A stretch of 64,000 nt of DNA, from the NCBI GenBank assembly GCA_964622265.1, contig CAZUNI010000008.1, positions 4,424-68,423 of the forward strand. The letters are read 5' to 3'. A model generated the notes under the pieces. That model made no database searches, was not told the origin of the DNA, and was given only the letters and a program-made list of their open reading frames with translations. Shown here one piece after another: positions 35,841-54,365 of this stretch (positions are counted from its first letter, which is position 1; every line of letters begins with the position of its first letter). The translations under genes were made by a program, and so were the position numbers. This stretch comes from an uncultured Acidobacteriaceae bacterium. GTDB lineage: Bacteria; Acidobacteriota; Terriglobia; Acidiferrales; UBA7541.

Positions 35841-36001
35841 CGCTCACGAAGAAAACTCAACAATAGATTCCGCTCACCCTCAGTGAGTTCGGTTTGGCCC
35901 CTCTCGGCACCAGCAATCCGGTGCACCGAGATGCCAGTCGAAGCCCAGAGATCAATCTGCCTCAGCCCACAAAGCAATCGCATTCGTTTCAGATCGGTCA
36001 T
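35732..36001 (-). CDS. XRE-family HTH transcriptional regulator
   Basis: LKRMRLLCGLRQIDLWASTGISVHRIAGAERGQTELTEGE is a typical Cro/C1-type HTH. Confidence 0.7.
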   Translation of the reverse strand: MTDLKRMRLLCGLRQIDLWASTGISVHRIAGAERGQTELTEGERNLLLSFLRERWTSLEETECATDSATSPPAMEPEASALPTVGKAGR

Positions 36002-36102
36002 AATGGATGAAGTGTAGTTTGGAGCAGGCGGGGAAAGATGTAGCTTGGGGCATGAATCTACCTACAATTTTATTCGACAGAGCCGGGCGTCTGGTATTTC
36101 GG

Positions 36103-36915: not shown

Positions 36916-37163
36916 GTGATCTTCCTTCCGCTCCTACGCCCACTGGATCGGTCCATGCAGCATCGAGAAATAGCGGTCGAGAACTTGTTGGTCGCTATGC
37001 TCAAACCAGTGAACGCTGTCAGACATCTCAACCCGCAAGATAAACGGGTCCTCAGGTATAGACCTTAATAGCACCACGGGTCGGCGAATCGGGCTTAACC
37101 ATCATTGTAAAACCTGCCGCCACGTTTCACAATCATTCGCCCGAGTCCGGGCAGAGGAAAATT

Positions 37164-38800: not shown

Positions 38801-38870
38801 GGTGCCCTATTAGAGCACGCGCCAAATTGTCTTGTCAGCTCTCTACATATGTGCTACAAGGGTGTGGCAG

Positions 38871-39080
38871 ATGCAGACATACTCAACACGCGAGGTTGCA
38901 CAGAAGCTAGGAATTGATCGCGTGACGCTCCAGCGATATATCGCCAAGAAGTTGATTTCAGTTCCGGCGGTGAAGTCGCTTGGAGGCGGCCAATTCCGAG
39001 AGTGGACCGATCGCGATGTTGAACGGGTTCGCAAGCAATTGCCTAAGATCAGGGACGGCAGGAAAAAGAAAAAGGCGTAA
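38871..39080 (+). CDS. excisionase/MerR-superfamily HTH protein (Xis/AlpA-like)
   Basis: YSTREVAQKLGIDRVTLQRYIAKKLI...REWTDRDVERVRKQL. The start is set at the internal ATG at 38871. The track ORF begins at a TTG at 38832. Confidence 0.6.
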   Translation: MQTYSTREVAQKLGIDRVTLQRYIAKKLISVPAVKSLGGGQFREWTDRDVERVRKQLPKIRDGRKKKKA

Positions 39081-39151
39081 AGTAAGCGGGACGCGCCGGT
39101 GTATCGAGCACCGACACGCCCCTGACCACCATCACCTAACTGGAGGCAACG

Positions 39152-39760
39152 ATGGGTTCGAATAGTTTACCTCGCGTCGCAATCTACGCACGAGTTTCAA
39201 CCACAAACCACGGCCAGGATGTGACTTTACAGACGCGCGAGCTTGAGCAATTCGCCCAGGCGCGCGGCTGGCATTTGGTGGATTCCTACCTCGACCTTGG
39301 AATCAGCGGCAGCAAAGGCAAACGCCCGGAGCTTGATCGCCTCATGGCAGACGCGCACCGTCGCAAGTTCGATGTGGTAATCGTGTGGAAGTTTGATCGC
39401 TTTGCTAGATCGGTGTCGCATCTTCTCCGTGCGCTCGAAAACTTCAACGCGCTCGGTATCGCTTTCGTTAGCCTCAGCGAACAAATGGATACCACGACGC
39501 CGACTGGAAAGATGATATTTACCGTCCTAGGAGCCGTGGCCGAACTGGAACGCAGTCTGATCGTGGAACGTGTCCGGGCCGGTCTCAGAAACGCCCGCGC
39601 GAAGGGAAAGACGTTGGGCAGGCCGCGCAAGACAGTGGACACCGCAAGAATTGCCGCCCTACGCGCACAAGGGCTCTCCTTGCGTGCGATTGCCTCCGAG
39701 CTAAGGGTTGGACTTGCCACACTGCATCGCGCGTCTGTACCCTGTTCCAAAATTCGGTAA
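39152..39760 (+). CDS. small serine recombinase (resolvase/invertase family)
   Basis: RVAIYARVSTTNHGQD catalytic serine motif, a resolvase core and C-terminal HTH GLSLRAIASELRVGLATLHR. A ggagg SD lies upstream. Confidence 0.9.
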   Translation: MGSNSLPRVAIYARVSTTNHGQDVTLQTRELEQFAQARGWHLVDSYLDLGISGSKGKRPELDRLMADAHRRKFDVVIVWKFDRFARSVSHLLRALENFNALGIAFVSLSEQMDTTTPTGKMIFTVLGAVAELERSLIVERVRAGLRNARAKGKTLGRPRKTVDTARIAALRAQGLSLRAIASELRVGLATLHRASVPCSKIR

Positions 39761-42800: not shown

Positions 42801-45800
42801 AAAGCGGAGGGGCGATAAGATCTCATTGAATTGATAGTCCTTCCGGTAGTTCACACCGCACGCTAGATCAAGCAACTCTCTCCACAAACGATCAGCTTCC
42901 GGGTTGAAGCCACACATCCCCCACGCTGTGGCTGTGGCAAGAATTTCGGAAGCCAAGACCGAGGTTTCCTCATCGGATCGGGCGGCGCGTTCGACAATGG
43001 AAAGCAATGAGCGTATAAGTTCTTTGGCGGCGGCTTTGAGACGCATAGCTAGACAAGCGGCAAAGTCTTTCGTTGCTCCTGAGTTGTTGACGGCTCGGCG
43101 TCCTTCGTTCGACTCTGCCCACCACTCACCGAGAGCTTGGAGATCATCTTCCTTGAGGATCCTTGCTGCTACATTCCACACAATGGCGAAAAGACGTGGC
43201 GACTCCTGCCGATAGAGACTCCTTGCAAGAAAATTCGAATGGCCCAACCCATCAAAGGCATGCGAACGAAGGTCAAGCTCTGAAAGAATGCCTTCGAGCC
43301 GCGGGAGCGCGTTAAGCGGTTTCCATCCCCCGCGCACCCAATCGGTCCAAACAAGCGCCAACTCCCCAAGTGCACTGATCACGGGATGGATTGGCTCGGG
43401 TAAGCCGGTTACGACCGATTCGAACCAAGCTTTCGCTTCCTTGTTGGAGAGAAAATAGAAACGAAAACGGTCGTATATGGTGAAAAGTTCTGGTTCGAGT
43501 TGGTTGTAAAGCTGATCCCTAAGGAATCCTTTTGGGAGAACAGGTGCTGTGGCGTCGGTATACCAAACTGTGTCCCACATGCCAGAGTCAGCCAGATCTA
43601 GCAACATCGTTCGGCGTTCAGATTCGGGTATGCTCGCGAAATTCACTGAACTAGCTGCGGTTCGGGCTTCCGCCATCTCACCAACGCGGACCAAAAGCAG
43701 CGCGCGCGCGACGCGAGCAAATTGAGCCACTTCGTTTGATGGAGTGCCGCCACCGGCCACGATCCGATCTAGCTCGGGGAGATTCTTGCTGTTACAGAGC
43801 TCCCGAATTACGGCGAATTGCAATGCGAGGTTCGTTGCCTGTCGATCGGGATCGGAAACCTGTTTCCTAGTGAACTTGTGTTCAGGCCGAATGGTCCACG
43901 AGAGCTTTGAGATTTCCTCGAGTATTTCGACCGCGGACTGAACATAGGTCGAGGCACGATAGTAGCTGGCAAGATCTATCGAGGACGCCTCAACGGGCCG
44001 GTCGGTAAGGACCGTTTTGATGATCGACAGTGGCGGGGGGCTACCGAACCGCTCGCGGTAGTGGAGGCAAAATTCTGCAAAGGCTACGGGCCCGCAGTGA
44101 GCTCTTTCACCGTCCCAGACAGTCCTGATCGCCTCAGCGTCGAGACCAGTATCGACAAGAAACCGCGCGATTTGTTCGGGTTTCAGATCAAGATGGTGCT
44201 CAACCAGTGCGAGGCGCTGCTTGATCAGCGCCAGTCGCAAAAAAGAAGCGAGATCTTGGGTTATCGAAGCAGCTTGCCAAGCTAAATCGATGTTTTGATG
44301 GATTTCGGAGACAGGACGGTGGGCCGTCCAACTGCTGACGAACCAATCGTAGGTCAGTTGCTGCTTCAGCTCCTCATACTTGCCGAGCTGAAAAAGGTGC
44401 CTGAAACGGTGGCGCCACGCCTCATCCCTGTCGGGGTGCGCCGCGTACCAATCGACTAGAGTTTCGTTGATCGCTGTAGTGAGAGCTTGGGTCTGTTCCA
44501 GCACAAACTCGCGAAAGCTGTTGTGGCGAATGGCGACACCGCGGCCCTCGGAGTTCCGCAATACGTGAGCAGTCGTACGTAGGGCTTGCTCAACGGAGAG
44601 CAGATTCGCGGGCACATGGAGCCGCTCCAGTAACTCTGCCATATCCGCCGGCGTCGTGAATTCATGACGAATCGCCAAAATGGCAAGTGCGTATATCGCT
44701 GTTTGGTCGTCCTCAAGACTTCTCCAGAGATGACGATGATATGCGTCAATCGTTTCGCTGCTGAGGGATGGCTGATGTTTCAACAATTCTTCCCGTTCAT
44801 AATCGCTCAGCGCAGCCAGCCTCATTCCGAGATACTCCAGGTAAATGGGCACTCCTCCAGAAACTTCCTGCGCCAACACAAGAAGCTCGGGCTCGAGATC
44901 CACTCCACGGCGAGCGAGGAATTCCTTGACTTGGGCCTGCACAAAGCGAGGAACCTTGATGTGTCGCAGCTGATCGCTCGCAATATGGTCCCGGACCGAA
45001 CGCGGCAGCGCTGCTAGGTATTGAGAACTCAGAACCATCAACACGTTGTCAGGCGGCAAATGATCGAGCACCGAAGTCAAAGGCTCCCTGATCATGTGTT
45101 GGGCGTACTTGGCATGCACATGGTCCAAGCCGTCAATTAGGAAAACGACACGCTCGTCCCGCTCCGAAACGTAACGGAGCCAACTATTGAGGAGCTCGAG
45201 CGAAAACTCCCCATACGGCTGCGGAAATTCGAGATCGGGGAACGCTTTCGACAAGCCAATGCACATCGATCTCACGAAGGCGGCCTGCTCGAGACGATAG
45301 TTGCCAAGTGAGGGGTCACTGGGTACATGGCAGCGATAGGCAAATGTCACGTCGTCCGGCCTTTGCATTGCGTACTCCGCGAGCAAGGTCGATTTCCCAA
45401 TGCCAGGCTCCCCTTCGAGCAGGATAAATCCACTATTGAGCTTGCTCAGAGATTCATCGAGGGCTTGAAACACTATGGGTGTAGGAACCCATTGCTCTTG
45501 AACTACCGGAAAAATGTGGTCGACTGGATCTATGAAATGGGTGGCGAGCCCCAAGGCGTCGAGGACATTGCTGACCTTCACGTTGGCACTGTCGATCGAC
45601 CACTTGACGACCTGGTTGAGTAACGTCCCGTATTGGACCTGTGCAATACCCAGACGGGTAAGCTTGGCTCGAACGCTGTTTTCTCGCGAGATGAGGTCCG
45701 GTTGGCCTAGGCGGAAGCGTAGGTGGCGCAGGAATGTGTTGAATTCCTCGAAAGTTGCGAGACCGGATGCTTGCAACAGCTGATTCACAATCTCTTTGTA

Positions 45801-46271
45801 CTCGGGGAATCGAGGGTTCTCGCGAATATCTGCAGAAGGCAGACCTTTCGTCAAGGGCTCTTGTACGTCCGAAATAAATTCTTCGAGACTTCGGGGAAAG
45901 CCTTTCGCGGGTTGTCGGTTCGAGCCGGCCTTCCGCGTCGAAAGAAGAACTATCTCTTTTGATCCGGGTTCGCCGCTTACCCTGCTGAATCCTGAAGCAA
46001 GCTTGGCTATGAGCGCCACCTCGGAGGACTCATCCGCCGTAACAAGATTGTGAAGGGTCAATGTTGCTGAATCGTCGTTCGCCCACTTGACTTGGACGAA
46101 GACCGTCCCACCGTCGCGCTCCACAATGATGTCGTCAACGAACTTGGCACGTTCGGCACTTTCCAGTGACACCGACTTCACGGAGGTGCCGATCTCAAGC
46201 AACTCAAGAACGTAGCCCGCTGCGACAACATTCTGGTAGTAAAATCCCGCCTGTGCGTCTGAGCCTGCCAT
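39810..46271 (-). CDS. giant NLR-like (NACHT/STAND) NTPase with an N-terminal Cap4/Mrr-type PD-(D/E)xK nuclease domain
   Basis: N-terminus GFYYQNVVAAGYVLELL...VDDIIVERDGGTVFVQVKW (DUF4297/Cap4-like D...QxK). Walker A LLEGEPGIGKSTLL and NACHT-like Walker B VVFLIDGLDHV. About 1700 further residues are uncharacterised. The uninterrupted ORF runs to 46391, and I prefer the internal ATG at 46271 (MAGSDAQAGFYYQ). Confidence 0.8.
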   Translation of the reverse strand: MAGSDAQAGFYYQNVVAAGYVLELLEIGTSVKSVSLESAERAKFVDDIIVERDGGTVFVQVKWANDDSATLTLHNLVTADESSEVALIAKLASGFSRVSGEPGSKEIVLLSTRKAGSNRQPAKGFPRSLEEFISDVQEPLTKGLPSADIRENPRFPEYKEIVNQLLQASGLATFEEFNTFLRHLRFRLGQPDLISRENSVRAKLTRLGIAQVQYGTLLNQVVKWSIDSANVKVSNVLDALGLATHFIDPVDHIFPVVQEQWVPTPIVFQALDESLSKLNSGFILLEGEPGIGKSTLLAEYAMQRPDDVTFAYRCHVPSDPSLGNYRLEQAAFVRSMCIGLSKAFPDLEFPQPYGEFSLELLNSWLRYVSERDERVVFLIDGLDHVHAKYAQHMIREPLTSVLDHLPPDNVLMVLSSQYLAALPRSVRDHIASDQLRHIKVPRFVQAQVKEFLARRGVDLEPELLVLAQEVSGGVPIYLEYLGMRLAALSDYEREELLKHQPSLSSETIDAYHRHLWRSLEDDQTAIYALAILAIRHEFTTPADMAELLERLHVPANLLSVEQALRTTAHVLRNSEGRGVAIRHNSFREFVLEQTQALTTAINETLVDWYAAHPDRDEAWRHRFRHLFQLGKYEELKQQLTYDWFVSSWTAHRPVSEIHQNIDLAWQAASITQDLASFLRLALIKQRLALVEHHLDLKPEQIARFLVDTGLDAEAIRTVWDGERAHCGPVAFAEFCLHYRERFGSPPPLSIIKTVLTDRPVEASSIDLASYYRASTYVQSAVEILEEISKLSWTIRPEHKFTRKQVSDPDRQATNLALQFAVIRELCNSKNLPELDRIVAGGGTPSNEVAQFARVARALLLVRVGEMAEARTAASSVNFASIPESERRTMLLDLADSGMWDTVWYTDATAPVLPKGFLRDQLYNQLEPELFTIYDRFRFYFLSNKEAKAWFESVVTGLPEPIHPVISALGELALVWTDWVRGGWKPLNALPRLEGILSELDLRSHAFDGLGHSNFLARSLYRQESPRLFAIVWNVAARILKEDDLQALGEWWAESNEGRRAVNNSGATKDFAACLAMRLKAAAKELIRSLLSIVERAARSDEETSVLASEILATATAWGMCGFNPEADRLWRELLDLACGVNYRKDYQFNEILSPLRFAHDRNPTATRQRIADQLNLAHRLGDAARAKTSAVAIEDLIVFARHISPGLPLKMLAHLEDSIYRERALHSLVLKWINSADVPLTWLWALASTAARWDDYSEYRDHVLPMREAIFEAALRRKDFVAAETIYRDAKHVFLVEKGAPQELAKWARLWIEIGDAPAYVQGDIQSHASDAPKEDSKETQPSRSFSGDPAIFTAAAEKGVSELQEVLNQLARRQMTERWQNEIERVLPDLLEIVSAALGRELTTDERTNVAPALKATQNRVAGLTPSDRIQTKAAIRLAMSDMIKAIAEKFEPPQLAEHLSNSLDMESWLERLPLVFTSRVPYQYDLEKLLPDWIAAARMSDLDSWIELCRTRFSDSCKAWGLLAIARRIRPLDPERAKALLQEAWRSHATLFFEYTELSNAILSEIMSVDPKLGCETLLDAFIVQHKQFPGLIVQRLDRILRFADHFRGVDFDEIYNLWAEYNEHLVRGLSAPPLNLDWFLDAADRPLTDEILGYVLWLLKYPVVDVRLLAVGELLRLLSEGVTTPDALLAQWDTFAAAQKELLAVLFFSFGLSKPEASHSWANSLLKLKVQEPHFNLRRTVSEAILTTNDRGAQLNSTLLDDARRLCASPAVARPLRTPLFGVSSIPLLPYPRWMMAHLAKSISREPLLRLIHARVAERYPSREEGFAEEMATHRGYNINDNFDPIEISGTYDGTVRESINVVLDELRQAQILDDVTANNVADLLRVSDPTEPLIQLTTPPPFIKWIDTDIGDVEFLSFNDWDHLARAFLDRHPAWYTLFEHTEQRTGGEHGPLRRRATRVRALVVAVLVDQVIPSADNVRDAAIEFRNRYRFELRRVEAGRREVLNPAIVPLVQASTRAFRGRHHLDIAALRPEFARELGLESDEADWLGYSRDCRAAVRSTAWQEAFDQSRRRHEPRSSGFLLEASADTLTSLATTHGWTYWVQLNVERTTNEYEPESKITWSRRSDLFRLKDFPPSAPDSARETPFL

Positions 46272-46732
46272 CGGAGTATCACCCAGTAACTGAACGAAGA
46301 TTCTAATGCAATTTGGGATAGGATGAGCGGCCAAGTGGACCGGTCGAGTTCTTGCCCACGCAAATTGGATCACAACGATAGCGAGTGGCATCTCAGAACG
46401 AGGAACAGATTGGAAACAGAAAACATTTCTCGGGAAATTCCTGGATCACCCGTGAAACACTACATCGCAGTTCAACGAAATCCCCCTGAAGTCCTAGGTA
46501 GGTGGCCTTTTGCCAGTGTTCCGAAAACCCCTCCGAGCGGTTACCCGTAAGCCTTTGAATCTATACGGTAGGAAATCGGCGGTTAAGGTGTTCCGGAAAC
46601 ACTTGATTTTGAAGTGTTGGTGCCGAGCTGCAGGGCGCATCGGGATCGCCCGACGGAGCAGGACTCATATTTGAGTCTATTAAAAGTTTTTCGAACCTTG
46701 ACCGAGAAAAGCCAGATGCCGTACGGCAGCGG

Positions 46733-47476
46733 TCAGCGCTCGCGATCTTTCACCCTTGCAACTGCCATGGCATGCGCTAGGAGCGATGAAAAAAAAGTCT
46801 CGAAGCTCAGCTCTGGCGACGGTTCTCTGTAATACCCTGTCACCCCTCGTCTGGCGTCCGAAAGAAGAAAACAGGCCGAATCGTAAAGGCGTTCGCGCAC
46901 GAGTTTGGTCAGCAAAATTTCGTAACGCTTCGCATAAGACGAGGCCTTGAACTCGGCGAACACTTTGAAGTGTGGCTCCTTGGCTCGTACAGACCGCATC
47001 GATCCAGGTGCCTCTTCTAGAAGCATCATGTACCCTAGCCATGGACGGGCCGATGGCTTGAACGCGCCTTCTCGATACGCCGCCCAGATGTCGGTGGCGC
47101 TCCCGATCGCTTCTTCTGTGCGATTGTTGTAGTTGTTTCCGAAGGATCCAACTTGGGATTTGAATTCAATTCCGGCCAGCAACTTGCCATCAGCGACCAC
47201 GAGCAAATCCCACCTCTTCTCCGGTCGGTACCACCCCGGAAGTTCGATCCGCTTTTCGCAATACACATGTGCTCTTGGCAAGCCGTTTTCGCACAGGTGG
47301 TCGCGGACCATCGAAACGAATCCATCCATCTGTCGACCGCCGGTTACGGCTGTTCGGGAACCCGCATCGCGTGATCCCGTCTTCGTACCTTGTTTTTCGG
47401 ATTGAGACTCGCGTGTCTTCCAAAAATGCTGCACGGCCCCGCGAAGGCGTTCCTCAATCTTCGAGTGTAAAGCCAT
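46733..47476 (-). CDS. type II restriction endonuclease (PD-(D/E)xK; possibly PaeR7I-like family)
   Basis: WDLLVVADGKLLAGIEFKSQ gives D...E-x-K. It lies 4 nt downstream of the methyltransferase stop. The family name is from memory only and is not verified. Confidence 0.6.
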   Translation of the reverse strand: MALHSKIEERLRGAVQHFWKTRESQSEKQGTKTGSRDAGSRTAVTGGRQMDGFVSMVRDHLCENGLPRAHVYCEKRIELPGWYRPEKRWDLLVVADGKLLAGIEFKSQVGSFGNNYNNRTEEAIGSATDIWAAYREGAFKPSARPWLGYMMLLEEAPGSMRSVRAKEPHFKVFAEFKASSYAKRYEILLTKLVRERLYDSACFLLSDARRGVTGYYREPSPELSFETFFSSLLAHAMAVARVKDRER

Positions 47477-47480
47477 TGTT

Positions 47481-48521
47481 TTATTCGCCCGGACTCGAGT
47501 GGATTTCCGCCAAACTGAACAGTGAAGATGTTTCGCATTCGAGTCGATTCAACGCCAACTCATAATAGTGGCGGTCAATTTCAAAACCGATGCTGTTCCG
47601 TCCCCATTTCGCAGCCGCCACTGCCGTTGTTGCCGTTCCCATGAACGGATCGAGAATAGTGTCGCCTACGAAACTGAACATCCTAATCAGGCGCTCGGCC
47701 AGTTCCGAAGGGTACGGGGCCGGATGTTGCCGCGTCGAAGCACCCGTGACTCCAGACCAAATTTGCTGGAACCACTTTTTGTGGTTCTCTGCCGAGAGAA
47801 GGCTCAGCACTTTCTTCGAAATGTCGGGGGCCCTGTAACCTCCGGGTTTCCTCTCCATCAAGATAAACTCAATGTCATTCTTGATTACTCCGTTGGGTTC
47901 GTAAGGCTTTCCCAGAAAGCTTGAGCCGTTTTCGACCTCGTGTGCGGCATTTGAAATTTTGTACCAGATGATGGGTGCCAAGTTGTCATAACCGAGCTTT
48001 CGGCAGTGTTCCTGAATCGAAGCGTGTAAAGGCACAACGGTGTGCCTTCCTCCGTTTTCACGACGCGACAGGCACACGTCGCCAACGACAACGATCAAAC
48101 GCCCGCCTGGAACCAGGACCCTGAAGCAGTGGGCCCAAACCTTGTCGAGCTCGCCGAGGAACTCATCGTAATCCTCGATGTGACCGAGCTGACCGTCGGA
48201 ATCCCTATATTCTTTGAGCGTCCAATAAGGAGGAGAGGTGAGCACCAAGTGAACGCTCTCAGCCGGAACCGCATCTAGAACTCTGCCATCTCCGCGGTTG
48301 AGCCGGTGACGGGTTGGAACGCTCCGAACCGCCCGCTCGATTTCGAGAACGGCTTTCGGATCCTTGGCAAGCCGCGGGATTGCCGTCTGTGGATTGTCTA
48401 GCTCTACGAATCGCTTCGGGACGTAAACGGACAAGTCCCGTTCCGGCCCATCGGACTTTGCGGCCTCTCGCTTTGTCTTTGTCCCAAGCATCATCCCTCT
48501 ATTTCCCAAGCTATCGGCCAC
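47481..48521 (-). CDS. beta-class N4-cytosine/N6-adenine DNA methyltransferase
   Basis: Motif IV LVLTSPPYW precedes motif I VGDTILDPFMGTATTAVAA, which is the beta permutation. SPPY favours N4-cytosine specificity. Confidence 0.85.
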   Translation of the reverse strand: MADSLGNRGMMLGTKTKREAAKSDGPERDLSVYVPKRFVELDNPQTAIPRLAKDPKAVLEIERAVRSVPTRHRLNRGDGRVLDAVPAESVHLVLTSPPYWTLKEYRDSDGQLGHIEDYDEFLGELDKVWAHCFRVLVPGGRLIVVVGDVCLSRRENGGRHTVVPLHASIQEHCRKLGYDNLAPIIWYKISNAAHEVENGSSFLGKPYEPNGVIKNDIEFILMERKPGGYRAPDISKKVLSLLSAENHKKWFQQIWSGVTGASTRQHPAPYPSELAERLIRMFSFVGDTILDPFMGTATTAVAAAKWGRNSIGFEIDRHYYELALNRLECETSSLFSLAEIHSSPGE

Positions 48522-48602
48522 CAGAGTAACACGTGCTGACTCGCACTGCTTTGTCCGGAAAATCTTCCAGATTGGGAACGGATTTTTAAAGCGCAGCAGC
48601 GC

Positions 48603-49952
48603 TTAACCAAGCGAAATGGTTCTACCCTGTGATTCGAGTGAGCTCATCAATTGCATGTGAGCGCGCCAACCGTCGCCCTCCGGATCCGCTTCGACTCGCA
48701 GCAGCCGATCGCCGCTTGGAGCATATCGCAACAACTGTTCACGGATGCCCGATCGCCCCAGAATCCAACATACGGTTCGGTGACGCGATAGCATCACGCA
48801 AAGACGGCCGGCGTCCAAATGAAACTCGGATGCATCGGCGCGCCCGGAGAGCGGATGGTGGACAAGCGTAATTTCCCGCTCGAGGCCCTGGAATCGGTCA
48901 GCCGTCTCGACCAGCACATCCGATAGATCGCTGGGAAGACGTTCACGCACGGCATTTACCTGTGAAACGTGTGCGCAAACAATGCCAATCATCGCGGGCG
49001 TAACCTGCCGTGAGGCATCTCCTTCTCTGATTCGCGCGGACCTTTCGAGCACGCGAACGGTCATTTCCACGAGTACCGTAGCCAATTCCTCGTCCACTTC
49101 ACCAACTATTCTTGCAGGAAGCCCGATGAAGGAAAGGCTCGCGCCGCCTTCGGCCGCGTCCAACGCTTGATCGGTTCTCTTCCGCCCCGAGATCGGGGTT
49201 GCAACAGCAAGCGTACGTGCGCCGCTTGGTGAGAGGGCCGCAAAATTCAAATCTGGATAGAAGGCAGGCTGAACAAAATTAACTGTGTCTTGCACGAGTC
49301 TTCTAGAAACGGGCAGGCTAAGGCGCTCAACTCCGCATAGACGCTTCACCAGCGAGACTGGACACGGAACGTGCGGGCCAGCGGGATCACACCGCCATCT
49401 TTCGATTTCACACCCAATGACGGGGGCGATTTGTCCTGGGTCGCCAACAAGTACGAATCGTCTCGCGAGGCAGGCGATCAGGTGAAACCGATAATCTGGC
49501 AACTGAAAAGCCTCATCGACGATCTGCAGATCGAAAGTTTGCTCATGGTGTTGAATCCACGACCACTTCCAAGCGTTCGCGATCACAACGCAGGGGCCCG
49601 CCGGAAGTTCATCGAACTGGTCGATCACCACAAGATTCTGGATCTGGGTCAATGAAGGAGGAAGCGTCAGGTCCCTCCGCGTGAGCAGATAGAAGGTATG
49701 TCGTGGGAATCCGCACGATAGTCGTCGCGCTAGATCGAAAGCTTGCTCGTTCGTCTGGGTGGCAATCATGCATCGCTCGCGCAGCAGCGCAAGCGATTGC
49801 ACAGCGAGACGCTCCACAATATCAGTTTTTCCTGCACCTGGAGGTGAGTCTAGACGAACGGCGGGAATGCCCGCCCACTGCGTTTCGAGAACTCGGCGCA
49901 CGGCTGCATCCGCCAATTCCTGTGGTGCCGTCGCAATTGTTGTTACGCTCAT
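48603..49952 (-). CDS. SF1 helicase-like P-loop ATPase (gene D of the four-gene operon)
   Basis: Walker A DSPPGAGKT, Walker B IVDEAFQLP, and motifs LVGDPGQIAPV, TADRFQGLERE and VMLSRHR. Confidence 0.8.
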   Translation of the reverse strand: MSVTTIATAPQELADAAVRRVLETQWAGIPAVRLDSPPGAGKTDIVERLAVQSLALLRERCMIATQTNEQAFDLARRLSCGFPRHTFYLLTRRDLTLPPSLTQIQNLVVIDQFDELPAGPCVVIANAWKWSWIQHHEQTFDLQIVDEAFQLPDYRFHLIACLARRFVLVGDPGQIAPVIGCEIERWRCDPAGPHVPCPVSLVKRLCGVERLSLPVSRRLVQDTVNFVQPAFYPDLNFAALSPSGARTLAVATPISGRKRTDQALDAAEGGASLSFIGLPARIVGEVDEELATVLVEMTVRVLERSARIREGDASRQVTPAMIGIVCAHVSQVNAVRERLPSDLSDVLVETADRFQGLEREITLVHHPLSGRADASEFHLDAGRLCVMLSRHRTVCWILGRSGIREQLLRYAPSGDRLLRVEADPEGDGWRAHMQLMSSLESQGRTISLG

Positions 49953-51397
49953 CGCAGGCCTTCAACGGCCGCGAGCAAATCAGCGGGCTTCGGGGTGCCC
50001 GTGGGTGAAGCGTCCGGGACCTGTCCGTTCTGGTGCGTCCAAACGGGTTGAGCAAGGCGGTCCCGCATCTGCTTTCGCAGCCGGATAATGCGATTCCAAT
50101 CAGGAGGAGAGGAGCCTAGCGACACCTCCTGGTCCGGCACAGGCAGCCCGACGGAACGCTTGCCCTGTAGCATTAAGACGGAAACCCGCTTGATTTGCCC
50201 GTTGCGGCGAACGTCCGTTATAACCACCTTCATTCGAGGATCGGCCAACAGATATAGCTCATCCCTCCGTCGGACGTGCAGCATTCTCTGCTCGGTCACG
50301 ACAGTGAACCGGCACTCAAACCGACGTGGAGATAAACGTGTTCTTACTGGATTTTCAACGATTCCGCACAAAATCCTCCCCGCCAACCGCTCGCGCTCAA
50401 AGTGGACCTTGTCGCCATAGAGCAACGCAGCGCGCGCGCCATCTGCGGCGTCCTCGCGGGAAGCCAAACGGAATGCCGCCGACTTCGGGCTGTCGCGCAG
50501 TGGCAACGCATGACCGAGCTCTCTCGATGTCATAAAAGAACGAAATTCATCCGCCTCTCGGGCTTCCAAACCGTCGAGATGCACAATTGGATCGAGTTGC
50601 TCTTGGATCAAAAGTGAGATCGCATCTTGTGTAGCTTCGTAGATTCGTAGGACCACTGGACGCAACACCGCTTCGATTCGCGAGGCCCGCGTCGCAAGTT
50701 CAGCGCTGGTAGCCTTTCTCTTTCGGGCCCCGTTGTATCGTGACACAAGCGGATCGAGCTCGTTGCGATCGAAATCCGGATCGGTCTTTACGCTCATCGG
50801 TAAATCTTCCGCAGCGGCGACGGCGGCCAAAACGTTTCGACCCGCAGGAGGGCGCATCCAGACAAGCAATGCACCCAAATGCTCATCTTCCGCTTCCTGC
50901 TGACCCGTAGCGAAATGCATCCTGAGTGCGCCGGTTGCCGTCACTAGAGCTTGCTGCCCTTCAACCGGAAAGCGTTCGGTGGCATAAGAAAGCAGTTCGC
51001 CGAAACGCTTCACGCGGAGATTTTCGCGATTGAACCGCAAACGGTCACCGAGTGTGTCCAGCAATCCCACCGCACCGGAGGATGGTAGCCAAATCTGCGG
51101 GTACGTTCCGTCCTGCTGACACTCTTCAAAATATCGCTCCACGCGTTCTCCGAGCCATTCAAAGAGATCATATTGGTCGTCCCGATAACGTGGATCCGGA
51201 ACACATCGAATGTCTGCTGGCTGGCCAAGGTGCCCGCACGCCACGATGTGGATCGTTGTGTCTTCTCCAGCCATCGCGATTGGGCAGATCACGAGTGCGT
51301 CTGGGCGGATTGCGATCCGCTGGTTGGATGCAATGCGGACAGCGCGTCCTTCTCGGAACGCCAGTAGCCTCGACACGACATTTAAAATATCGAGCAT
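49949..51397 (-). CDS. hypothetical protein (gene C of the four-gene operon)
   Basis: Uninterrupted ORF. The preferred ATG at 51397 lies 1 nt after the gene B stop (TGAGATG), and its stop overlaps the gene D start (ATGA). I recognise no motif. Confidence 0.55.
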   Translation of the reverse strand: MLDILNVVSRLLAFREGRAVRIASNQRIAIRPDALVICPIAMAGEDTTIHIVACGHLGQPADIRCVPDPRYRDDQYDLFEWLGERVERYFEECQQDGTYPQIWLPSSGAVGLLDTLGDRLRFNRENLRVKRFGELLSYATERFPVEGQQALVTATGALRMHFATGQQEAEDEHLGALLVWMRPPAGRNVLAAVAAAEDLPMSVKTDPDFDRNELDPLVSRYNGARKRKATSAELATRASRIEAVLRPVVLRIYEATQDAISLLIQEQLDPIVHLDGLEAREADEFRSFMTSRELGHALPLRDSPKSAAFRLASREDAADGARAALLYGDKVHFERERLAGRILCGIVENPVRTRLSPRRFECRFTVVTEQRMLHVRRRDELYLLADPRMKVVITDVRRNGQIKRVSVLMLQGKRSVGLPVPDQEVSLGSSPPDWNRIIRLRKQMRDRLAQPVWTHQNGQVPDASPTGTPKPADLLAAVEGLR

Positions 51398-51398
51398 C

Positions 51399-52502
51399 TC
51401 AGCCTGCCCTCCGCAGCGCCGCTGCCACCTCTTGAAGTTTCTCGGCCAACGCCCTTTCAGCTTCCGTCCTGGGTCGCGTGCCATGGAGGAGGTCTGCAGC
51501 ACGCGAAATTGAACCCGCCGGAATCAAGAGTTCTTTCGCCTGTTCGCCCAGGAGGATTGGATCCTGAGTGGCAATCGCAGCTTGCTTGCAGTGCTTCGCT
51601 AAAGCGCAGTATTCACGGCAATTCGAGCGATAACTGTTCGGCACAGCTTCCAGGACCCTTGCCTGGTCGAGCCTCCCGCCTGCGGGTAGTAATGCTTCGA
51701 GTTCGTCGAGATTTCTGGGTGCTTCCCCAAATGCACGCTCGAGGGAAGCCACTTCGTTGCGAATCGTCATTTCGCTTAGCCGTCCTTGACGCGACGCAGG
51801 AATACGCAACACTAGATCGCAGATTGGCGGAACGGCCGTAGTCGCTTCGGGAATTCCAAGCCGCTCCGCAACTTGGCGAAGAGAAACAACAGCAACCGCA
51901 GCCTGGCGGCAGGCGCTGCGGAGGTCTGCCGGATCTGTTTTGCCTGCGCGGTCCGAATACGATTTCAGTTCAATCGGGCGGTAGAATTTGTCCGCGTCTG
52001 CGGCCACGATAGCATCCGGCTCGATTCCGTGTTCAATACCGAGCAGCGCGACAGTCAACCGTGGTTTGATAATCAAATTTGGGGCCGCCGCATCTCCAGA
52101 TGCTTTGAGGCGAAGAAAGCGGAGCGTCTCCGCAGCACGCTGCGCGACAACGCGGGGCCCCACTCCGGGGACCAGATCGGGAATCACGACAACTTTGCAC
52201 TCAGCGGTAGTGAGGTGCTCCGCGTCGCGCAGAAGCTTCAGAAGGGCTGCCGCGCCGTCTTTGATCAATCCCTGCTCAAAAGCGTTGCCGATTGCTAAAG
52301 CAAATGGCGACTGCCCTCGCTGCGTCTGTTCTCCATAAACACTTTCGGCGGCAGTCTTCGGCGTGATTCCTGCAATCGTTAACGCGCGCAGCCTCGTGCA
52401 TTCCGGATTCCGGGCGATGCGTTCAATTCCTCGCGCGCCGGGTTCCTCAGCGGGCAAGCTTCCCCGTAAATGCGCAAGTCGTTGATCAACTGGCAAGCTC
52501 AT
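51399..52502 (-). CDS. Cas4/RecB-like PD-(D/E)xK nuclease candidate (gene B of the four-gene operon)
   Basis: GIEPDAIVAAD...YRPIELKS (GxxD ... ExK), plus one N-terminal Cys (NPECTRL) and the C-terminal cluster CREYCALAKHC (C-x3-C-x5-C), reminiscent of Fe-S Cas4/AddB nucleases. Confidence 0.5.
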   Translation of the reverse strand: MSLPVDQRLAHLRGSLPAEEPGARGIERIARNPECTRLRALTIAGITPKTAAESVYGEQTQRGQSPFALAIGNAFEQGLIKDGAAALLKLLRDAEHLTTAECKVVVIPDLVPGVGPRVVAQRAAETLRFLRLKASGDAAAPNLIIKPRLTVALLGIEHGIEPDAIVAADADKFYRPIELKSYSDRAGKTDPADLRSACRQAAVAVVSLRQVAERLGIPEATTAVPPICDLVLRIPASRQGRLSEMTIRNEVASLERAFGEAPRNLDELEALLPAGGRLDQARVLEAVPNSYRSNCREYCALAKHCKQAAIATQDPILLGEQAKELLIPAGSISRAADLLHGTRPRTEAERALAEKLQEVAAALRRAG

Positions 52503-53359
52503 CGTCCGGCTGCCTTCCTGATGGAGCCAGTATGGCCTTCAATTACCGCAGGGCGGCCCCAAAGTTGCGCGTACGCAGGAAGTTTCAAAAGTTCCGGAAC
52601 ATCGGCTTTGCGTTCTCCAAGGTCGAGAGATTCGATCGCATCGAGCTCGGATTGTGCCGCTTCGCGAATTTGATCCGTATCGATTTCGTCCGCCGTGGAA
52701 GTTGCACCGGGAATGCTACGCGCGTAGCGCCGCAGTAATTCAAGGAGCCTGTCGCTGCTACCCGAAGCCTTCGTTTGATTCAATACGGTGAGGCGTCGCA
52801 GCAGGGCAAACACGGTCTTCAAATGGTTGACCCGCAGAGTGCGAGGCCCGATTAGCCTTCTTTCCGGCTCCCAAACTGAACTTACCACTAGCCGGGGGAT
52901 GGCTCGAAATCCTCGCGCGTTCAATGCGGGAACCAACCAAGCGGGTCTCGCCAGCGAATCCCTTCGATATGCGCTGTGCTCGTCTCTCCGCAAACTCGCA
53001 AACCTACCCGCAGGAACTAACATTCCGAACCAGACAGCAGCGCATTCGGAGAGCGTTCCCGGAGAAGAAGGGACTCCCAACTCGTCCAGGATGTCCAACA
53101 CCACTTCTCGAATCGGACGCTGTCCGGAGCGCGCGTTGTACGCGCCATAGCGTTCGGGCTTTTCCAGATCGCACAGCTTTAAATCTTGCACAATCCGCTG
53201 GTGCTGAGAGTTCAGACGGGCAACAACTGCTTGAATCTCGTCAATCGCGTTGGAAGAACTACCCGGGCTCGCAAGAAGCTTTCCCAATTCGGCAAGGGCG
53301 ACCTGTTGTTTTTTTACTACCGCCGCAAGCCGGCTTTTCAAGTGCGCTGTCTGATTCAT
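52499..53359 (-). CDS. hypothetical protein with N-terminal coiled coil (gene A of the four-gene operon)
   Basis: 286-aa ORF whose stop overlaps the gene B start (ATGA). It has a coiled-coil-like N-terminus and a possible wHTH (PIREVVLDILDELGVPSSPGTLSE). Confidence 0.5.
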   Translation of the reverse strand: MNQTAHLKSRLAAVVKKQQVALAELGKLLASPGSSSNAIDEIQAVVARLNSQHQRIVQDLKLCDLEKPERYGAYNARSGQRPIREVVLDILDELGVPSSPGTLSECAAVWFGMLVPAGRFASLRRDEHSAYRRDSLARPAWLVPALNARGFRAIPRLVVSSVWEPERRLIGPRTLRVNHLKTVFALLRRLTVLNQTKASGSSDRLLELLRRYARSIPGATSTADEIDTDQIREAAQSELDAIESLDLGERKADVPELLKLPAYAQLWGRPAVIEGHTGSIRKAAGR

Positions 53360-53436
53360 GGAACAAGTCTAGCATTCCACGCTTTTCCACGCAAGTCCAT
53401 AATGAGCCGATTCTGTCGCCGTGGTAGTGCGGTGCG

Positions 53437-54075
53437 TCAGTCGCTGATGTGGGAGACCCGGCTCTTTTTCAGATCGCTGAGGCGAAGGCGTCCGCGCTGG
53501 TCGATGCCGACCGGATAATCGCGGCCACTTTTGACATACCTTCTCTTGTTGATGGGGATAGCCGTCGGACCGCAATTGCTGGCTGCGAGCACAGCGGCGT
53601 ATGCCTTGGTTGGTACGAGGGCGCGCACAAAGTTATCACCAATCTTGAATTCCGCTAGCTTCCAGCGGCGGGGGCCACGCAGCAACCCGCGCTCTCTCAA
53701 CTTCTGTGTTTCCCATTGCGCTGCCCTAAGCTGTTCAAAAGTCGCGAGGGGATAGCGATCCCGAGGCATCTGTAGCCGCCCATCCGCGAAAAATCCTTCA
53801 AGTAATGGCACGGGCCAGTACGCCGCGAATTCCCGCACGAGCTTTTGAACCCACGTGTGGCTTACTCCGATCCGCCGCGCAAGCTCGCGGCGCGAGCATC
53901 GTGGTCCCTGGTCGATGTACCACTGCCAAACAAGGCGCTGGATCGTCTGCGACTCAGCCAAGCTCCGCCATAGTCGTGGCTTTCGGCCATTCGCATTGGC
54001 TTTCGCGAGGTTCTGTCGGGATGTTTCACGTGACGGCACCGGGGAATTGTTAGCGGAGTTGCCAGTCCTCCTCAA
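53437..54075 (-). CDS. HTH-containing hypothetical protein
   Basis: CSRRELARRIGVSHTWVQKLV HTH-like segment. It lies 77 nt upstream of gene A on the same strand. Confidence 0.45.
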   Translation of the reverse strand: MRRTGNSANNSPVPSRETSRQNLAKANANGRKPRLWRSLAESQTIQRLVWQWYIDQGPRCSRRELARRIGVSHTWVQKLVREFAAYWPVPLLEGFFADGRLQMPRDRYPLATFEQLRAAQWETQKLRERGLLRGPRRWKLAEFKIGDNFVRALVPTKAYAAVLAASNCGPTAIPINKRRYVKSGRDYPVGIDQRGRLRLSDLKKSRVSHISD

Positions 54076-54365
54076 TCGTGTCTAAAGGACTTAGGAAAAC
54101 AGACTATCAAGCGTGGCAAATTATTCTTGCCTTGACGCCCATATTCCGTCCCTTGCCACTCCTCCAGCCGCTGGAGGTAGAAACTCAGAAGTTGGTGTGA
54201 GGTTCCCATCTCGGCTGCGAGTGTCCGCAGCGAACTCCTGAACGATTCCGGCGTGTGCTTCCACTCCATGAGTCTTGCTCGAATCTCTGCCGCGCGAGAT
54301 TCACTAGTGGGCTTGCGCCCTCGCTTATGGCGGGTAGCATTAACGGGCTTGGACGATCCATTCAT
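54072..54365 (-). CDS. small hypothetical protein (possible HTH)
   Basis: 97-aa ORF with a 4-nt overlap with the downstream gene. LRTLAAEMGTSHQLLSFYLQRL is HTH-like. Confidence 0.35.
   Translation of the reverse strand: MNGSSKPVNATRHKRGRKPTSESRAAEIRARLMEWKHTPESFRSSLRTLAAEMGTSHQLLSFYLQRLEEWQGTEYGRQGKNNLPRLIVCFPKSFRHD

What the first reader, a model, noticed from the sequence alone, without database searches (positions are those of the whole stretch)
48603..53359. Tightly coupled four-gene operon (unknown - Cas4/RecB-like nuclease - unknown - SF1 helicase): candidate undescribed defence or DNA-processing system
Seen in sequence:
- Four consecutive minus-strand ORFs of 286, 367, about 482 and 449 aa.
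- Junctions of ATGA (A/B), TGAGATG (B/C) and ATGA (C/D), which imply translational coupling and fixed stoichiometry.
- Gene D has SF1 helicase motifs (GAGKT, DEAFQ, GDPGQ, RFQGLERE).
- Gene B has GxxD...ELK plus a Cys cluster C-x3-C-x5-C and an N-terminal Cys, as in Fe-S Cas4/AddB-type nucleases.
- Genes A and C have no motif I can recognise.

Inference: this is a nuclease-helicase machine with two novel partners, placed directly upstream of an R-M pair and an NLR-like gene inside a mobile element. I cannot match the gene order or sizes to a named system I know (Gabija, Hachiman, Wadjet, Zorya, Druantia, DISARM, Nhi, Mokosh).
Basis: partly seen in the sequence, partly recalled or inferred. Interest (0 to 1): 0.8.

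Follow-up and report, generated by a model that had tools for sequence, protein, structure and literature searches.

The report
Unnamed helicase-nuclease operon tied to restriction-modification
Four tightly coupled genes (an iron-sulfur Cas4-like nuclease, a small Dna2/Upf1-type helicase and two proteins of unknown kind) form a conserved, so far unnamed module found in at least five bacterial phyla; here it travels as one six-gene unit with an XhoI-type restriction-modification pair and is most likely a new anti-foreign-DNA defence machine.

Summary
In detail: four overlapping minus-strand genes, A 286 aa, B 367 aa, C 482 aa and D 449 aa. B is a Cas4/RecB-family PD-(D/E)xK nuclease with an invariant four-Cys iron-staple pattern, shown by a confident AF2 model and Foldseek. 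D is a minimal SF1B (Upf1/Dna2-like) helicase with every motif invariant. A and C match nothing in Pfam, NCBIfam, PADLOC, PHROGs or PDB; C's confident model has no significant structural neighbour. B-C-D occur in this order in 78 of 78 independent loci with enough flank, and A in 59 of them. The loci come from Acidobacteriota, Proteobacteria, Chloroflexota, Myxococcota and Actinomycetota. Neighbours are often Gabija, GmrSD, Wadjet, SIR2, Bil, integrases or conjugation genes. The module was not found in phage collections.

The real unit here is larger than reported. Window 46733-53400 (A-B-C-D plus the M.XhoI-like and R.XhoI-like genes) is one conserved block in three relatives with unrelated flanks. 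In proteobacterial relatives an unrelated 434-aa DNA methyltransferase co-diverges with the quartet (r=0.89).

Best reading: a split Dna2/AddAB-like helicase-nuclease complex acting as the effector or processor of a methylation-linked defence system. Function is untested.

Verdict: new variant of a known kind; interest about 0.62.

The parts
52499..53359 (-). Gene A, 286 aa. It has an N-terminal helical hairpin or coiled coil (about residues 3-64) and a conserved core of unknown fold. It is the most divergent subunit.
   Evidence: No hit in Pfam, PADLOC, NCBIfam or PHROGs, and none in 93 diverse members. The profile matches only coiled-coil chains in PDB. The family has 610 representative clusters at E<=1e-3 among 1.84 billion. 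A is 38-45% identical across phyla against 55-62% for D. It is absent from the chromosomal Streptomyces clade.
51399..52502 (-). Gene B, 367 aa. It is a Cas4/RecB-family PD-(D/E)xK nuclease with a 4-Cys 'iron-staple' (putative [4Fe-4S]).
   Evidence: The AF2 model has pLDDT 93.9. The top 31 Foldseek PDB hits are all RecB/Cas4/lambda-Exo family nucleases: ACE1 at 1.3e-3, MGME1, Cas4 SSO0001, RecE at prob 1.0 and TMt 0.52, EXO5 and AdnAB; AddAB follows at rank 36. C35, C295, C299, C305, E161, D163 and K180 are conserved in all clades. Pfam Cas4 and PDDEXK_1 models do not hit.
49949..51397 (-). Gene C, 482 aa, the signature protein of unknown function. It has an N-terminal alpha/beta domain (possibly RNase-H-like), a long helical stalk (about 207-338) and a C-terminal beta-barrel (about 343-428).
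   Evidence: The AF2 model has pLDDT 90.3 and pTM 0.85. No Foldseek hit reaches E<0.05 in PDB or E<0.018 in BFVD. Only weak partial hits appear (Sen1/SETX, RNase H, HerA). No profile-library or PDB sequence hit exists. The family has 179 clusters of very uniform length.
48603..49952 (-). Gene D, 449 aa. It is a minimal SF1B (Upf1/Dna2-like) helicase. Walker A starts at residue 36, so there is no N-terminal accessory domain.
   Evidence: Pfam AAA_12 scores 2.7e-10 (above cut-off), and AAA_11 and AAA_19 also hit. The best PDB sequence hits are the DNA2 helicase domain (7.5e-5), Sen1 and SETX. Motifs I, Ia, II, III, V and VI are invariant in 54 sequences.
47481..48521 (-). N6/N4 DNA methyltransferase (M.XhoI-like), 81 nt downstream of D on the same strand. 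It is part of the co-inherited six-gene block.
   Evidence: Pfam N6_N4_Mtase scores 6.8e-39 and PADLOC MTase_II scores 1e-59. It always follows D in the window clade despite different outer flanks. No terminator-like site lies between D and M.
46733..47476 (-). XhoI-family Type II restriction endonuclease, the last gene of the conserved block.
   Evidence: Pfam XhoI scores 6.7e-78 and PADLOC REase_II scores 2.7e-87. The nucleotide homology block with L005, L057 and L058 ends exactly at its stop codon.
46733..53400 (-). Whole conserved six-gene unit, A-B-C-D-M-R.
   Evidence: blastn shows one continuous block of 72-73% identity in three relatives, with window ends at 46733-46738 and 53159-53400. 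The flanks are unrelated. All six genes have dN/dS of about 0.1 or less with saturated dS.

Best explanation
A-B-C-D encode the subunits of one multi-protein helicase-nuclease machine. The family is conserved, horizontally mobile and so far unnamed. Its enzymatic core is a 'split Dna2': an Fe-S Cas4/RecB-type nuclease (B) and a minimal SF1B motor (D). These are joined by a large scaffold of new fold (C) and a fast-evolving coiled-coil subunit (A) that probably acts as adaptor or sensor.

The module most likely serves defence against foreign DNA and works with a DNA-methylation module. In this window it forms a single six-gene unit with an XhoI-type methyltransferase and endonuclease.

Proposed mechanism (inferred):
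1. M marks host DNA.
2. R.XhoI-like cuts unmethylated incoming DNA.
3. The ABCD complex loads on the resulting ends or 5' tails.
4. D translocates 5'->3' while B degrades the strand, so the invader is destroyed processively instead of being repaired or recombined.

In relatives that carry only a methyltransferase, ABCD itself would have to make the first cut, as in Type III or Type ISP systems.

Shown: gene structure, conservation, co-occurrence, the fold and catalytic residues of B, the helicase motifs of D, linkage to methyltransferases, and defence or mobile-element context.

Inferred: complex formation, polarity, DNA-end loading, the defence role, and functional coupling to the R-M pair.
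For: - Gene order B-C-D holds in 78 of 78 loci with enough flank, and A is present in 59 of 78.
- Start/stop overlaps of 1-8 nt are conserved across phyla.
- B's fold and its invariant D...ExK and 4-Cys residues are established.
- D's motifs are invariant, and its closest solved relatives are Dna2 and Sen1.
- Distribution is rare and patchy with high cross-phylum identity, which is typical of horizontally moving accessory systems. Only 44 of 185,579 species genomes matched by pattern scan, and identity is 48-61% between Acidobacteriota, Chloroflexota and Burkholderia.
- Immediate neighbours include Gabija twice, GmrSD_N plus HEPN twice, AbiEii, SIR2, UvrD-PDDEXK and BilABCD, Wadjet and SbcCD, DISARM-like genes, Cap4-NACHT here, and integrases, recombinases and conjugation genes.
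- The six-gene block has exact common ends and unrelated flanks, and all six genes are under purifying selection.
- An unrelated 434-aa N6/N4 MTase adjoins A in at least 27 proteobacterial loci. Its pairwise identities track those of C (r=0.89; 0 of 2000 Mantel permutations reach that value; for comparison D vs C gives r=0.97).
- A C5 MTase is adjacent in another clade.
Against: - No experiment supports any of this. 'Defence' rests on guilt by association.
- Several clades have no methyltransferase within about 8-10 kb (L004 and L061, L055, L059, the Streptomyces plasmids, and chromosomal Streptomyces). Methylation therefore cannot be obligatory for ABCD.
- Defence islands are rich in MTases, so some adjacency is expected by chance.
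- The XhoI pair is a complete Type II system on its own and may simply hitch-hike.
- In chromosomal Streptomyces, B-C-D sits without A in a syntenic, housekeeping-looking neighbourhood (PAP2 and luciferase-like genes). That looks more like a cellular DNA-metabolism function.
- Many alphaproteobacterial cassettes lie among ordinary genes.
- C's role and any A-B-C-D contacts were not modelled.
Confidence: 0.55

Rival explanations
1. ABCD is a stand-alone helicase-nuclease defence system in the manner of Hachiman, Gabija or Nhi. It would sense aberrant DNA, free ends or replication intermediates. The methyltransferases or R-M pairs next to it are separate systems that merely co-travel in defence islands.
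For: The quartet occurs without any nearby MTase in several clades. The XhoI pair is self-sufficient. Three unrelated MTase types are involved, which could reflect island shuffling. The MTase in proteobacteria is transcribed with a RES-Xre toxin-antitoxin pair or an AAA_16 ATPase, often divergently from ABCD.
Against: The six-gene block keeps exact common ends through saturating synonymous divergence. The MTase co-diverges with C over 40-98% identity despite inversions of orientation. Plain neighbours in islands normally reshuffle much faster, as the other flanks here do.
Confidence: 0.25
2. ABCD is a DNA-end resection, repair or recombination complex, an AddAB/RecBCD/Dna2 analogue. It would serve the host or the mobile element's own maintenance, for example processing breaks made by its R-M system or maintaining linear or integrative replicons. 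It would not be an immune effector.
For: The domain content of B plus D equals that of Dna2/AddAB-type resection enzymes. A divergent SbcCD sits next to it on Streptomyces plasmids. The chromosomal, syntenic B-C-D of Streptomyces lies in a non-defence context. ParAB genes are nearby in two loci.
Against: The distribution is very sparse and patchy for a repair function. Placement next to classic defence systems recurs. There is no consistent linkage to replication, partition or integrase genes. Hosts already have RecBCD, AddAB or AdnAB (established knowledge, not tested here).
Confidence: 0.15
3. The four ORFs are an annotation artefact or a decaying remnant with no current function.
For: One relative has a fragmented D among IS elements (L059). 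Another has a shortened XhoI gene (L058).
Against: dN/dS is at most about 0.1. Catalytic residues are invariant. The AF2 models are confident. There are hundreds of homologous clusters.
Confidence: 0.01

Closest known systems
Dna2 nuclease-helicase (eukaryotes and archaea; PDB 5EAN)
   Same: Both have an Fe-S RecB/Cas4-type PD-(D/E)xK nuclease with one Cys upstream and three downstream of the core, plus an SF1B Upf1-like motor. Dna2's helicase domain is D's best solved sequence relative.
   Different: Here the nuclease and the motor are separate, translationally coupled polypeptides. Two extra subunits (A, C) have no counterpart. The Cys spacing is C-x3-C-x5-C rather than C-x2-C-x5-C (the Dna2 spacing is recalled, not tested). 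The genes are borne on mobile islands and are not housekeeping.
AddAB / AdnAB / RecBCD end-processing helicase-nucleases
   Same: They are multi-subunit helicase plus RecB-family nuclease machines, with an Fe-S staple in AddB. They load at DNA ends and destroy restricted phage DNA. AdnAB and AddAB chains appear among B's Foldseek hits.
   Different: Their motors are SF1A UvrD-like (plus RecD). Subunits are 2-3 times larger with fused domains. There is no sequence-level relationship to A or C, and no evidence for Chi-like regulation here.
Helicase-nuclease defence systems (Hachiman HamAB, Gabija GajAB, Nhi, Mokosh)
   Same: They share a nuclease plus helicase logic and residence in defence islands. 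D's helicase core weakly matches the MkoA, MkoC and DpdJ models.
   Different: No HMM of any of these systems matches A, B or C. The helicase and nuclease families differ (HamB is SF2, GajA is OLD/TOPRIM, MkoB is PLD). This module has four subunits.
Methyltransferase-coupled multi-gene restriction systems (Type III R-M, Type ISP, DISARM, BREX, MADS)
   Same: A DNA MTase is genetically and evolutionarily coupled to a helicase plus PD-(D/E)xK nuclease.
   Different: Those systems use SF2 helicases or other ATPases. No component models match. The only hits are faint ones of the neighbouring Xre, MTase and AAA_16 genes to mad1, mad2 and mad8. The MTase is dispensable in some clades, and here it comes with its own Type II endonuclease.
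Cas4 / ACE1 (Argonaute-associated Cas4-family enzyme), MGME1, EXO5, RecE
   Same: These are the best structural neighbours of B. They share the catalytic motif order and, for Cas4, ACE1 and EXO5, the four-Cys cluster.
   Different: B is larger (367 aa) with N- and C-terminal helical additions. It is not detected by Pfam Cas_Cas4 or PDDEXK_1. It is not linked to CRISPR or Argonaute loci.

Membership tests
Cas4/RecB-family PD-(D/E)xK nucleases (gene B) | PD-(D/E)xK restriction-endonuclease-like core fold | tested here: met
   The AF2 model has pLDDT 93.9. The top 31 Foldseek PDB hits all belong to this family, with prob up to 1.0 and E from 1.3e-3. TM-scores are modest (0.2-0.5) because of insertions.
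Cas4/RecB-family PD-(D/E)xK nucleases (gene B) | Catalytic D ... (D/E)xK residues conserved | tested here: met
   E161, D163 and K180 are conserved in all clades, and E178 is nearly invariant.
Cas4/RecB-family PD-(D/E)xK nucleases (gene B) | Four-Cys 'iron staple' (one N-terminal Cys plus a C-terminal triad) binding a [4Fe-4S] cluster | tested here: inconclusive
   C35 and C295-x3-C299-x5-C305 are invariant in 79 sequences, including the distant clade. Actual cluster binding cannot be tested in silico.
Cas4/RecB-family PD-(D/E)xK nucleases (gene B) | Match to curated family profiles (Pfam Cas_Cas4 PF01930, PDDEXK_1 PF12705) | tested here: not met
   There is no Pfam, NCBIfam or PADLOC hit at E<=0.01-0.1, and the profile against PDB sequences finds nothing. 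B is a divergent new subfamily, related at the fold level only.
SF1B Upf1/Dna2-like helicases (gene D) | AAA_11/AAA_12 helicase core with motifs I, Ia, II, III, V and VI | tested here: met
   AAA_12 scores 40.6 bits against a cut-off of 27. AAA_11 scores 24.9 bits, just below its cut-off. Dna2, Sen1 and SETX are the best PDB sequence hits. The motifs are invariant.
SF1B Upf1/Dna2-like helicases (gene D) | 5'->3' translocation; accessory 1B barrel and stalk domains | not testable with these tools
   Polarity needs biochemistry. D begins 35 residues before Walker A, so it lacks an N-terminal stalk and barrel. C gives weak Foldseek hits to Sen1/SETX (prob 0.97, E 0.06-0.3), but the aligned regions are not reported.
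Dna2-type nuclease-helicase | Nuclease and SF1B helicase domains in one polypeptide | tested here: not met
   B and D are separate genes with C between them. The module works like Dna2 at the level of domain content but is not a member.
Named defence systems in PADLOC v2.0.0 (Gabija, Hachiman, Mokosh, Dpd, DISARM, Zorya, Druantia, Wadjet, MADS, PDC candidates and others) | All core components match the system's HMMs | tested here: not met
   A, B and C have zero hits. D has only helicase-core hits to MkoA, MkoC and DpdJ. NCBIfam (June 2026) likewise gives only a PLuB_AAA helicase-core hit far below its cut-off.
Type II R-M, XhoI family (downstream pair) | XhoI endonuclease domain with an adjacent amino-methyltransferase | tested here: met
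   PF04555 scores 6.7e-78 and PF01555 scores 6.8e-39. PADLOC REase_II scores 2.7e-87 and MTase_II scores 1e-59.
Anti-phage / anti-MGE defence system (generic) | Recurrent location in defence islands or mobile elements | tested here: met
   Known defence genes lie within 1-3 genes in 8 of 11 Pfam-annotated contexts. No formal enrichment statistic against genome background was computed.
Anti-phage / anti-MGE defence system (generic) | Experimental protection against phage or plasmid | not testable with these tools
   This needs cloning and challenge assays. Four of the six literature searches run were aimed at finding a description of such a system, and none turned one up.

The most novel reading that the evidence does not exclude
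ABCD is the restriction/effector complex of a previously unrecognised class of methylation-linked immunity. It is a four-subunit 'split-Dna2' machine built around two new protein folds (A and C). It either reads the methylation state itself, in the MTase-only clades, or is coupled to a Type II enzyme to turn single cuts into processive destruction of invading DNA. C may supply in trans the stalk and barrel regulatory domains that Upf1-like helicases normally carry in cis, or it may be a second nuclease with an RNase-H-like fold.
Probability: 0.3. Interest if true: 0.8.

Novelty: new variant of a known kind. Interest (0 to 1): 0.62.

Why it matters
If it is confirmed as a defence system, it would add a phylogenetically broad family that current detectors (PADLOC v2, NCBIfam, Pfam) cannot see. 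The family spans Acidobacteriota, Alpha-, Beta- and Gammaproteobacteria, Chloroflexota, Myxococcota and Actinomycetota.

It would also give a bacterial, genetically separable version of the Dna2 architecture. Nuclease, motor and accessory parts could be studied as individual subunits.

Two confidently folding families without known relatives (A and C) would be available for structural work.

Finally, the repeated and independent capture of different methyltransferases, and here of a whole Type II R-M pair, offers a testable case of how classical restriction is upgraded by an end-processing machine.

Tried and rejected
- **Concatenated A+B alignment.** I built it to get both structures and a possible interface from one AF2 job. 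MAFFT placed the A homologues on the B half (identity 13-19%), so I did not submit it. A therefore has no model.
- **Profile searches against PDB sequences.** Profiles of A, B and C found nothing useful.
- **Foldseek of C.** Neither PDB nor BFVD gave a significant hit. The RNase-H-like and Sen1-like partial hits are too weak to assign, and the aligned regions are not reported.
- **Internal homology among the four families.** hhalign probabilities are all below 1%.
- **A versus the Streptomyces A-slot gene.** hhalign gives prob 0.25, and that gene is a PAP2_3 protein.
- **Nucleotide and collection searches.** Megablast of the operon against plasmids and E. coli found nothing. tblastn of C against phage records and a scan of IMG/VR found nothing.
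- **Literature.** Six full-text searches were run in all. Four aimed at such a system (Cas4-like with Upf1-like, Dna2-like with anti-phage, SF1B with defence, MTase with SF1 and Cas4) found no description. The PLuB search returned only unrelated papers. The sixth search returned the 2017 Cas4 phylogenomics paper (PMC5704561), which describes UvrD-Cas4 and YprA-Cas4 links, not this one.
- **A replication or conjugation module.** I considered and rejected this because there is no consistent linkage to rep, relaxase or partition genes.
- **MADS.** I rejected it because only the neighbouring genes give faint mad1, mad2 and mad8 hits, while A-D give none.

Full report
**1. Observation**

The four minus-strand ORFs exist exactly as described: A 52499-53359 (286 aa), B 51399-52502 (367 aa), C 49949-51397 (482 aa) and D 48603-49952 (449 aa). 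The mechanical ORF for C starts at a GTG at 51502 (517 aa). Homologues are 478-484 aa, which supports the ATG at 51397.

A/B and C/D overlap by ATGA, and B/C reads TGAgATG. The same 1-8 nt overlaps recur in Burkholderia, Chloroflexota and metagenomic relatives. Translational coupling is therefore a conserved feature and not an accident of this sequence.

**2. The four proteins**

*Gene D.* D matches Pfam AAA_12 above its cut-off, plus AAA_11 and AAA_19. Its best solved sequence relatives are the helicase domains of DNA2, Sen1 and SETX. PADLOC and NCBIfam give only helicase-core matches (MkoA, MkoC, DpdJ, PLuB_AAA). In an alignment of 54 family members, Walker A, Ia, DEAxQ, GDPGQ and RFQGxE are invariant. 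D is an intact, minimal SF1B helicase. Walker A starts at residue 36, so D lacks the N-terminal accessory domains of Upf1-like enzymes.

*Gene B.* B has no hit in Pfam, PADLOC, NCBIfam, PHROGs or PDB sequences.
- Alignment A1 (69 sequences) shows invariant C35, C295, C299, C305 and K180, and near-invariant E161, D163 and E178. These are kept in the actinobacterial clade at only about 30% identity.
- An AF2 model with pLDDT 93.9 retrieves only RecB/Cas4/lambda-Exo-family nucleases among its first 31 PDB hits: ACE1, MGME1, Cas4 SSO0001, RecE, EXO5 and AdnAB. AddAB follows at rank 36.
- E-values are modest (1e-3 to 5e-2), but the hit list is uniform and the catalytic and Cys motifs sit in the right order.
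- B is therefore a divergent Cas4/RecB-family nuclease with an iron-staple Cys pattern.

*Gene C.* C has no hit in any profile library or in PDB sequences. Its AF2 model is confident (pLDDT 90.3, pTM 0.85).
- The model shows an N-terminal alpha/beta domain with beta1-beta2-beta3-alpha-beta4-alpha...beta5 order, very long helices (207-338) and a C-terminal beta-barrel (343-428).
- Foldseek finds nothing below E=0.05 in PDB or below E=0.018 in BFVD.
- Recurrent weak partial hits go to RNase H or polynucleotidyl-transferase folds and to Sen1/SETX (prob up to 0.97). These are leads only.

*Gene A.* A has no Pfam hit in itself or in 92 other diverse members. Its profile matches only coiled-coil or helical-bundle chains over residues 3-64. 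The four families are not related to each other (hhalign).

**3. Conservation and distribution**

- Word-indexed searches found 179 (C), 130 (B) and 107 (A) clusters. All are 'hypothetical' with no Pfam domains.
- An exhaustive profile search with A found 610 representative clusters (424 at E<=1e-10) among 1.84 billion.
- A pattern scan of one genome per species found C in 44 of 185,579 species (a lower bound): an Acidobacteriota MAG (79% identical, the closest), many Alphaproteobacteria, Paraburkholderia, a Polyangiaceae MAG, and a distant Streptomyces/Virgisporangium clade.
- Protein hits add Chloroflexota, Gammaproteobacteria and Burkholderia pseudomallei.
- With 53 further metagenomic loci, 78 of 78 non-redundant loci with enough flank have B-C-D in the same order and strand, and 59 of 78 also have A. 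The count of 59 may be one or two too low: tblastn does find A in L027, which this test scored as lacking it.
- Most A-less loci are the chromosomal Streptomyces clade. There the upstream gene is an unrelated PAP2_3 protein. Streptomyces plasmids carry the full quartet.
- Cross-phylum identity is highest for D (55-62%) and lowest for A (38-45%).
- C is absent from 50,697 phage records and from IMG/VR.

**4. Context**

In the window the operon lies in an island bounded by a large serine recombinase (32463-34133). The island also holds a resolvase, a 2193-aa Cap4-nuclease-NACHT (Avs-like) protein and the XhoI-type R-M pair. Ordinary carbohydrate and stress genes follow after about 55.8 kb.

| Locus or group | Genes next to the quartet |
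|---|---|
| L053, L056 | Gabija |
| L054, L056 | GmrSD_N plus HEPN |
| L056 | AbiEii |
| L004, L061 | SIR2, UvrD-PDDEXK-M78, BilABCD |
| L055 | Lhr-like helicase |
| L057 | SLFN-type helicase |
| L062 | DISARM-like genes and Mrr |
| Streptomyces plasmids | Wadjet and SbcCD |
| Several loci | Integrases, IS elements, conjugation genes |

Beyond this the flanks are heterogeneous. The cassette is self-contained and mobile.

**5. Link to methyltransferases**

This is the new finding.

- blastn of the window against its three closest relatives (L005, L057, L058) gives one continuous block of 72-73% identity. It runs from 46733-46738 to 53159-53400, that is from the stop codon of the XhoI-like endonuclease to the start of A. 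The flanks are unrelated (contexts).
- All six genes show dN 0.07-0.28 with saturated dS. A-B-C-D-M-R has therefore been inherited and moved as one unit for a long time.
- No terminator-like site separates D from M.
- In the proteobacterial clade a different, roughly 434-aa N6/N4 DNA MTase sits directly upstream of A in at least 27 loci, co-directional or divergent. It is often co-transcribed with a RES-Xre toxin-antitoxin pair or an AAA_16 ATPase.
- The pairwise identities of that MTase track those of C over the range 40-98% (r=0.89; 0 of 2000 Mantel permutations reach that value; D vs C gives r=0.97).
- One mid-clade locus has a C5 MTase adjacent.
- Other clades have no MTase nearby.

The link to methylation is thus recurrent, of independent origin and long-lived, but it is not universal.

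**6. Mechanism**

B plus D reproduce the domain content of Dna2 (an Fe-S RecB-type nuclease plus an SF1B motor) and, functionally, of AddAB, AdnAB and RecBCD. All of these load on DNA ends or 5' tails and couple translocation to degradation. That statement is established knowledge of those families. Its transfer to this module is inference.

Tight coupling and strict co-occurrence argue for a stoichiometric A-B-C-D complex. C is the natural scaffold, with its long helices and barrel. A, with its coiled coil and fastest evolution, is a candidate adaptor or sensor.

I consider the following most likely for this window:
1. The methyltransferase marks self DNA.
2. R.XhoI-like makes the first cut in unmodified DNA.
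3. ABCD enters at the break and destroys the DNA processively.

In MTase-only relatives, ABCD must also initiate cleavage.

Confidence is about 0.55 that this is a defence-type helicase-nuclease complex functionally tied to methylation or R-M. It is about 0.3 for the specific order of events. The rivals are stand-alone defence with hitch-hiking R-M (0.25) and a repair or element-maintenance function (0.15). The Streptomyces chromosomal B-C-D and the SbcCD adjacency are the best arguments for the repair rival.

**7. Comparison and novelty**

The module works like Dna2 and AddAB and resembles MTase-coupled systems (Type III, DISARM). It fails the membership tests for all of them:
- its polypeptides are split;
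- it uses an SF1B motor rather than an SF2 or SF1A motor;
- no component profile matches.

Six full-text searches were run; the four aimed at a published description of such a system found none, one returned only unrelated papers, and one returned the 2017 Cas4 phylogenomics paper, which reports other Cas4-helicase links. The libraries and papers at hand are not exhaustive, so an unindexed recent description cannot be excluded.

I rate it a new variant of a known kind: a helicase-nuclease, methylation-linked defence module with two protein families of unknown relationship.

**8. Limits**

- There was no structure for A and no multimer modelling.
- Foldseek output gives no alignment coordinates, so the domains of C stay unassigned.
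- Defence and MTase enrichment were judged from about 80 loci without a genome-wide background model.
- Gene calls in GC-rich loci used a home-made GC3-weighted ORF picker.

Noticed in passing
window 39810-46391 (-): A 2193-aa protein has an N-terminal Cap4-type dsDNA endonuclease domain, a NACHT/STAND ATPase and a long C-terminal region. PADLOC Avs1b scores 8.4e-24, and the nuclease part resembles LmuA/HamA. It is an Avs-like NLR immediately downstream of the six-gene unit. It is not part of the conserved block, because it is absent in L005, L057 and L058.
   Followed up: partly
window 32463-39760: The left end of the island holds a large serine recombinase (32463-34133), a protein with a DnaA_N domain (34878-35840), three ORFs without Pfam hits, and a small resolvase/invertase (39152-39760). 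A P-type ATPase and VIT1 lie to the left, and stress and carbohydrate genes lie beyond about 55.8 kb. The integrative element is therefore probably about 32.4-55.7 kb. Attachment sites were not searched.
   Followed up: no
L019:5334-7943 and about 20 other alphaproteobacterial loci (e.g. L012:5317-8036): A conserved three-gene operon, Xre/MbcA-ParS antitoxin, RES toxin and a 434-aa N6/N4 DNA methyltransferase, sits next to the quartet. In L001 and L009 an AAA_16 (BrxC/D- or STAND-like) ATPase replaces the toxin-antitoxin pair. A toxin-antitoxin pair co-transcribed with a methyltransferase is unusual.
   Followed up: partly
L060, L063, L064 (Streptomyces plasmids NZ_CP108489, NZ_CP027023, NZ_CP060826): The full A-B-C-D quartet is flanked by a divergent SbcCD, and in two of the plasmids by Wadjet (JetABCD). 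In all three records it lies about 5-14 kb from a record end (two records are linear, one is flagged circular). A possible link to terminal regions of linear replicons was not examined.
   Followed up: partly
L035-L048 (Streptomyces chromosomes), e.g. L048:7814-14119: B-C-D occurs without A in a syntenic chromosomal site in 13-14 species. It is preceded by an overlapping PAP2_3 membrane phosphatase gene and followed by a luciferase-like monooxygenase. C is 529 aa there. This may be a domesticated or functionally different version.
   Followed up: partly
L062:5646-21452: The quartet sits between a 638-aa C5 DNA methylase and a run of genes that looks like class-2 DISARM (786 aa, a 1033-aa Helicase_C protein, 571 aa, PLDc_2), followed by an Mrr/AspBHI-like enzyme. 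It may be an insertion into, or a partnership with, a DISARM locus.
   Followed up: no
L004:12947-14424 and L061:12897-14413: In the Chloroflexota-type clade two further conserved genes without Pfam hits (about 275-292 aa and 213-217 aa) follow D. After them come a UvrD-PDDEXK_1-Peptidase_M78 fusion and a BilABCD cluster. They could be clade-specific accessory genes of the system.
   Followed up: no
L059:11449-12933; L058:7929-8525: Decay is seen in some copies. D is broken into four small ORFs among IS66 and IS3 elements in L059. The XhoI-like endonuclease is shortened to 198 aa in L058, while its methyltransferase and A-D stay intact.
   Followed up: no
window 53437-54365 (-): Two small same-strand ORFs lie upstream of A. 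One is 97 aa. The other is 110-212 aa depending on the start, with faint HTH-like hits. They are present in the identical contigs L049-L052 but not in L005, L057 or L058. They are therefore not part of the conserved unit, though they may act as local regulators.
   Followed up: partly
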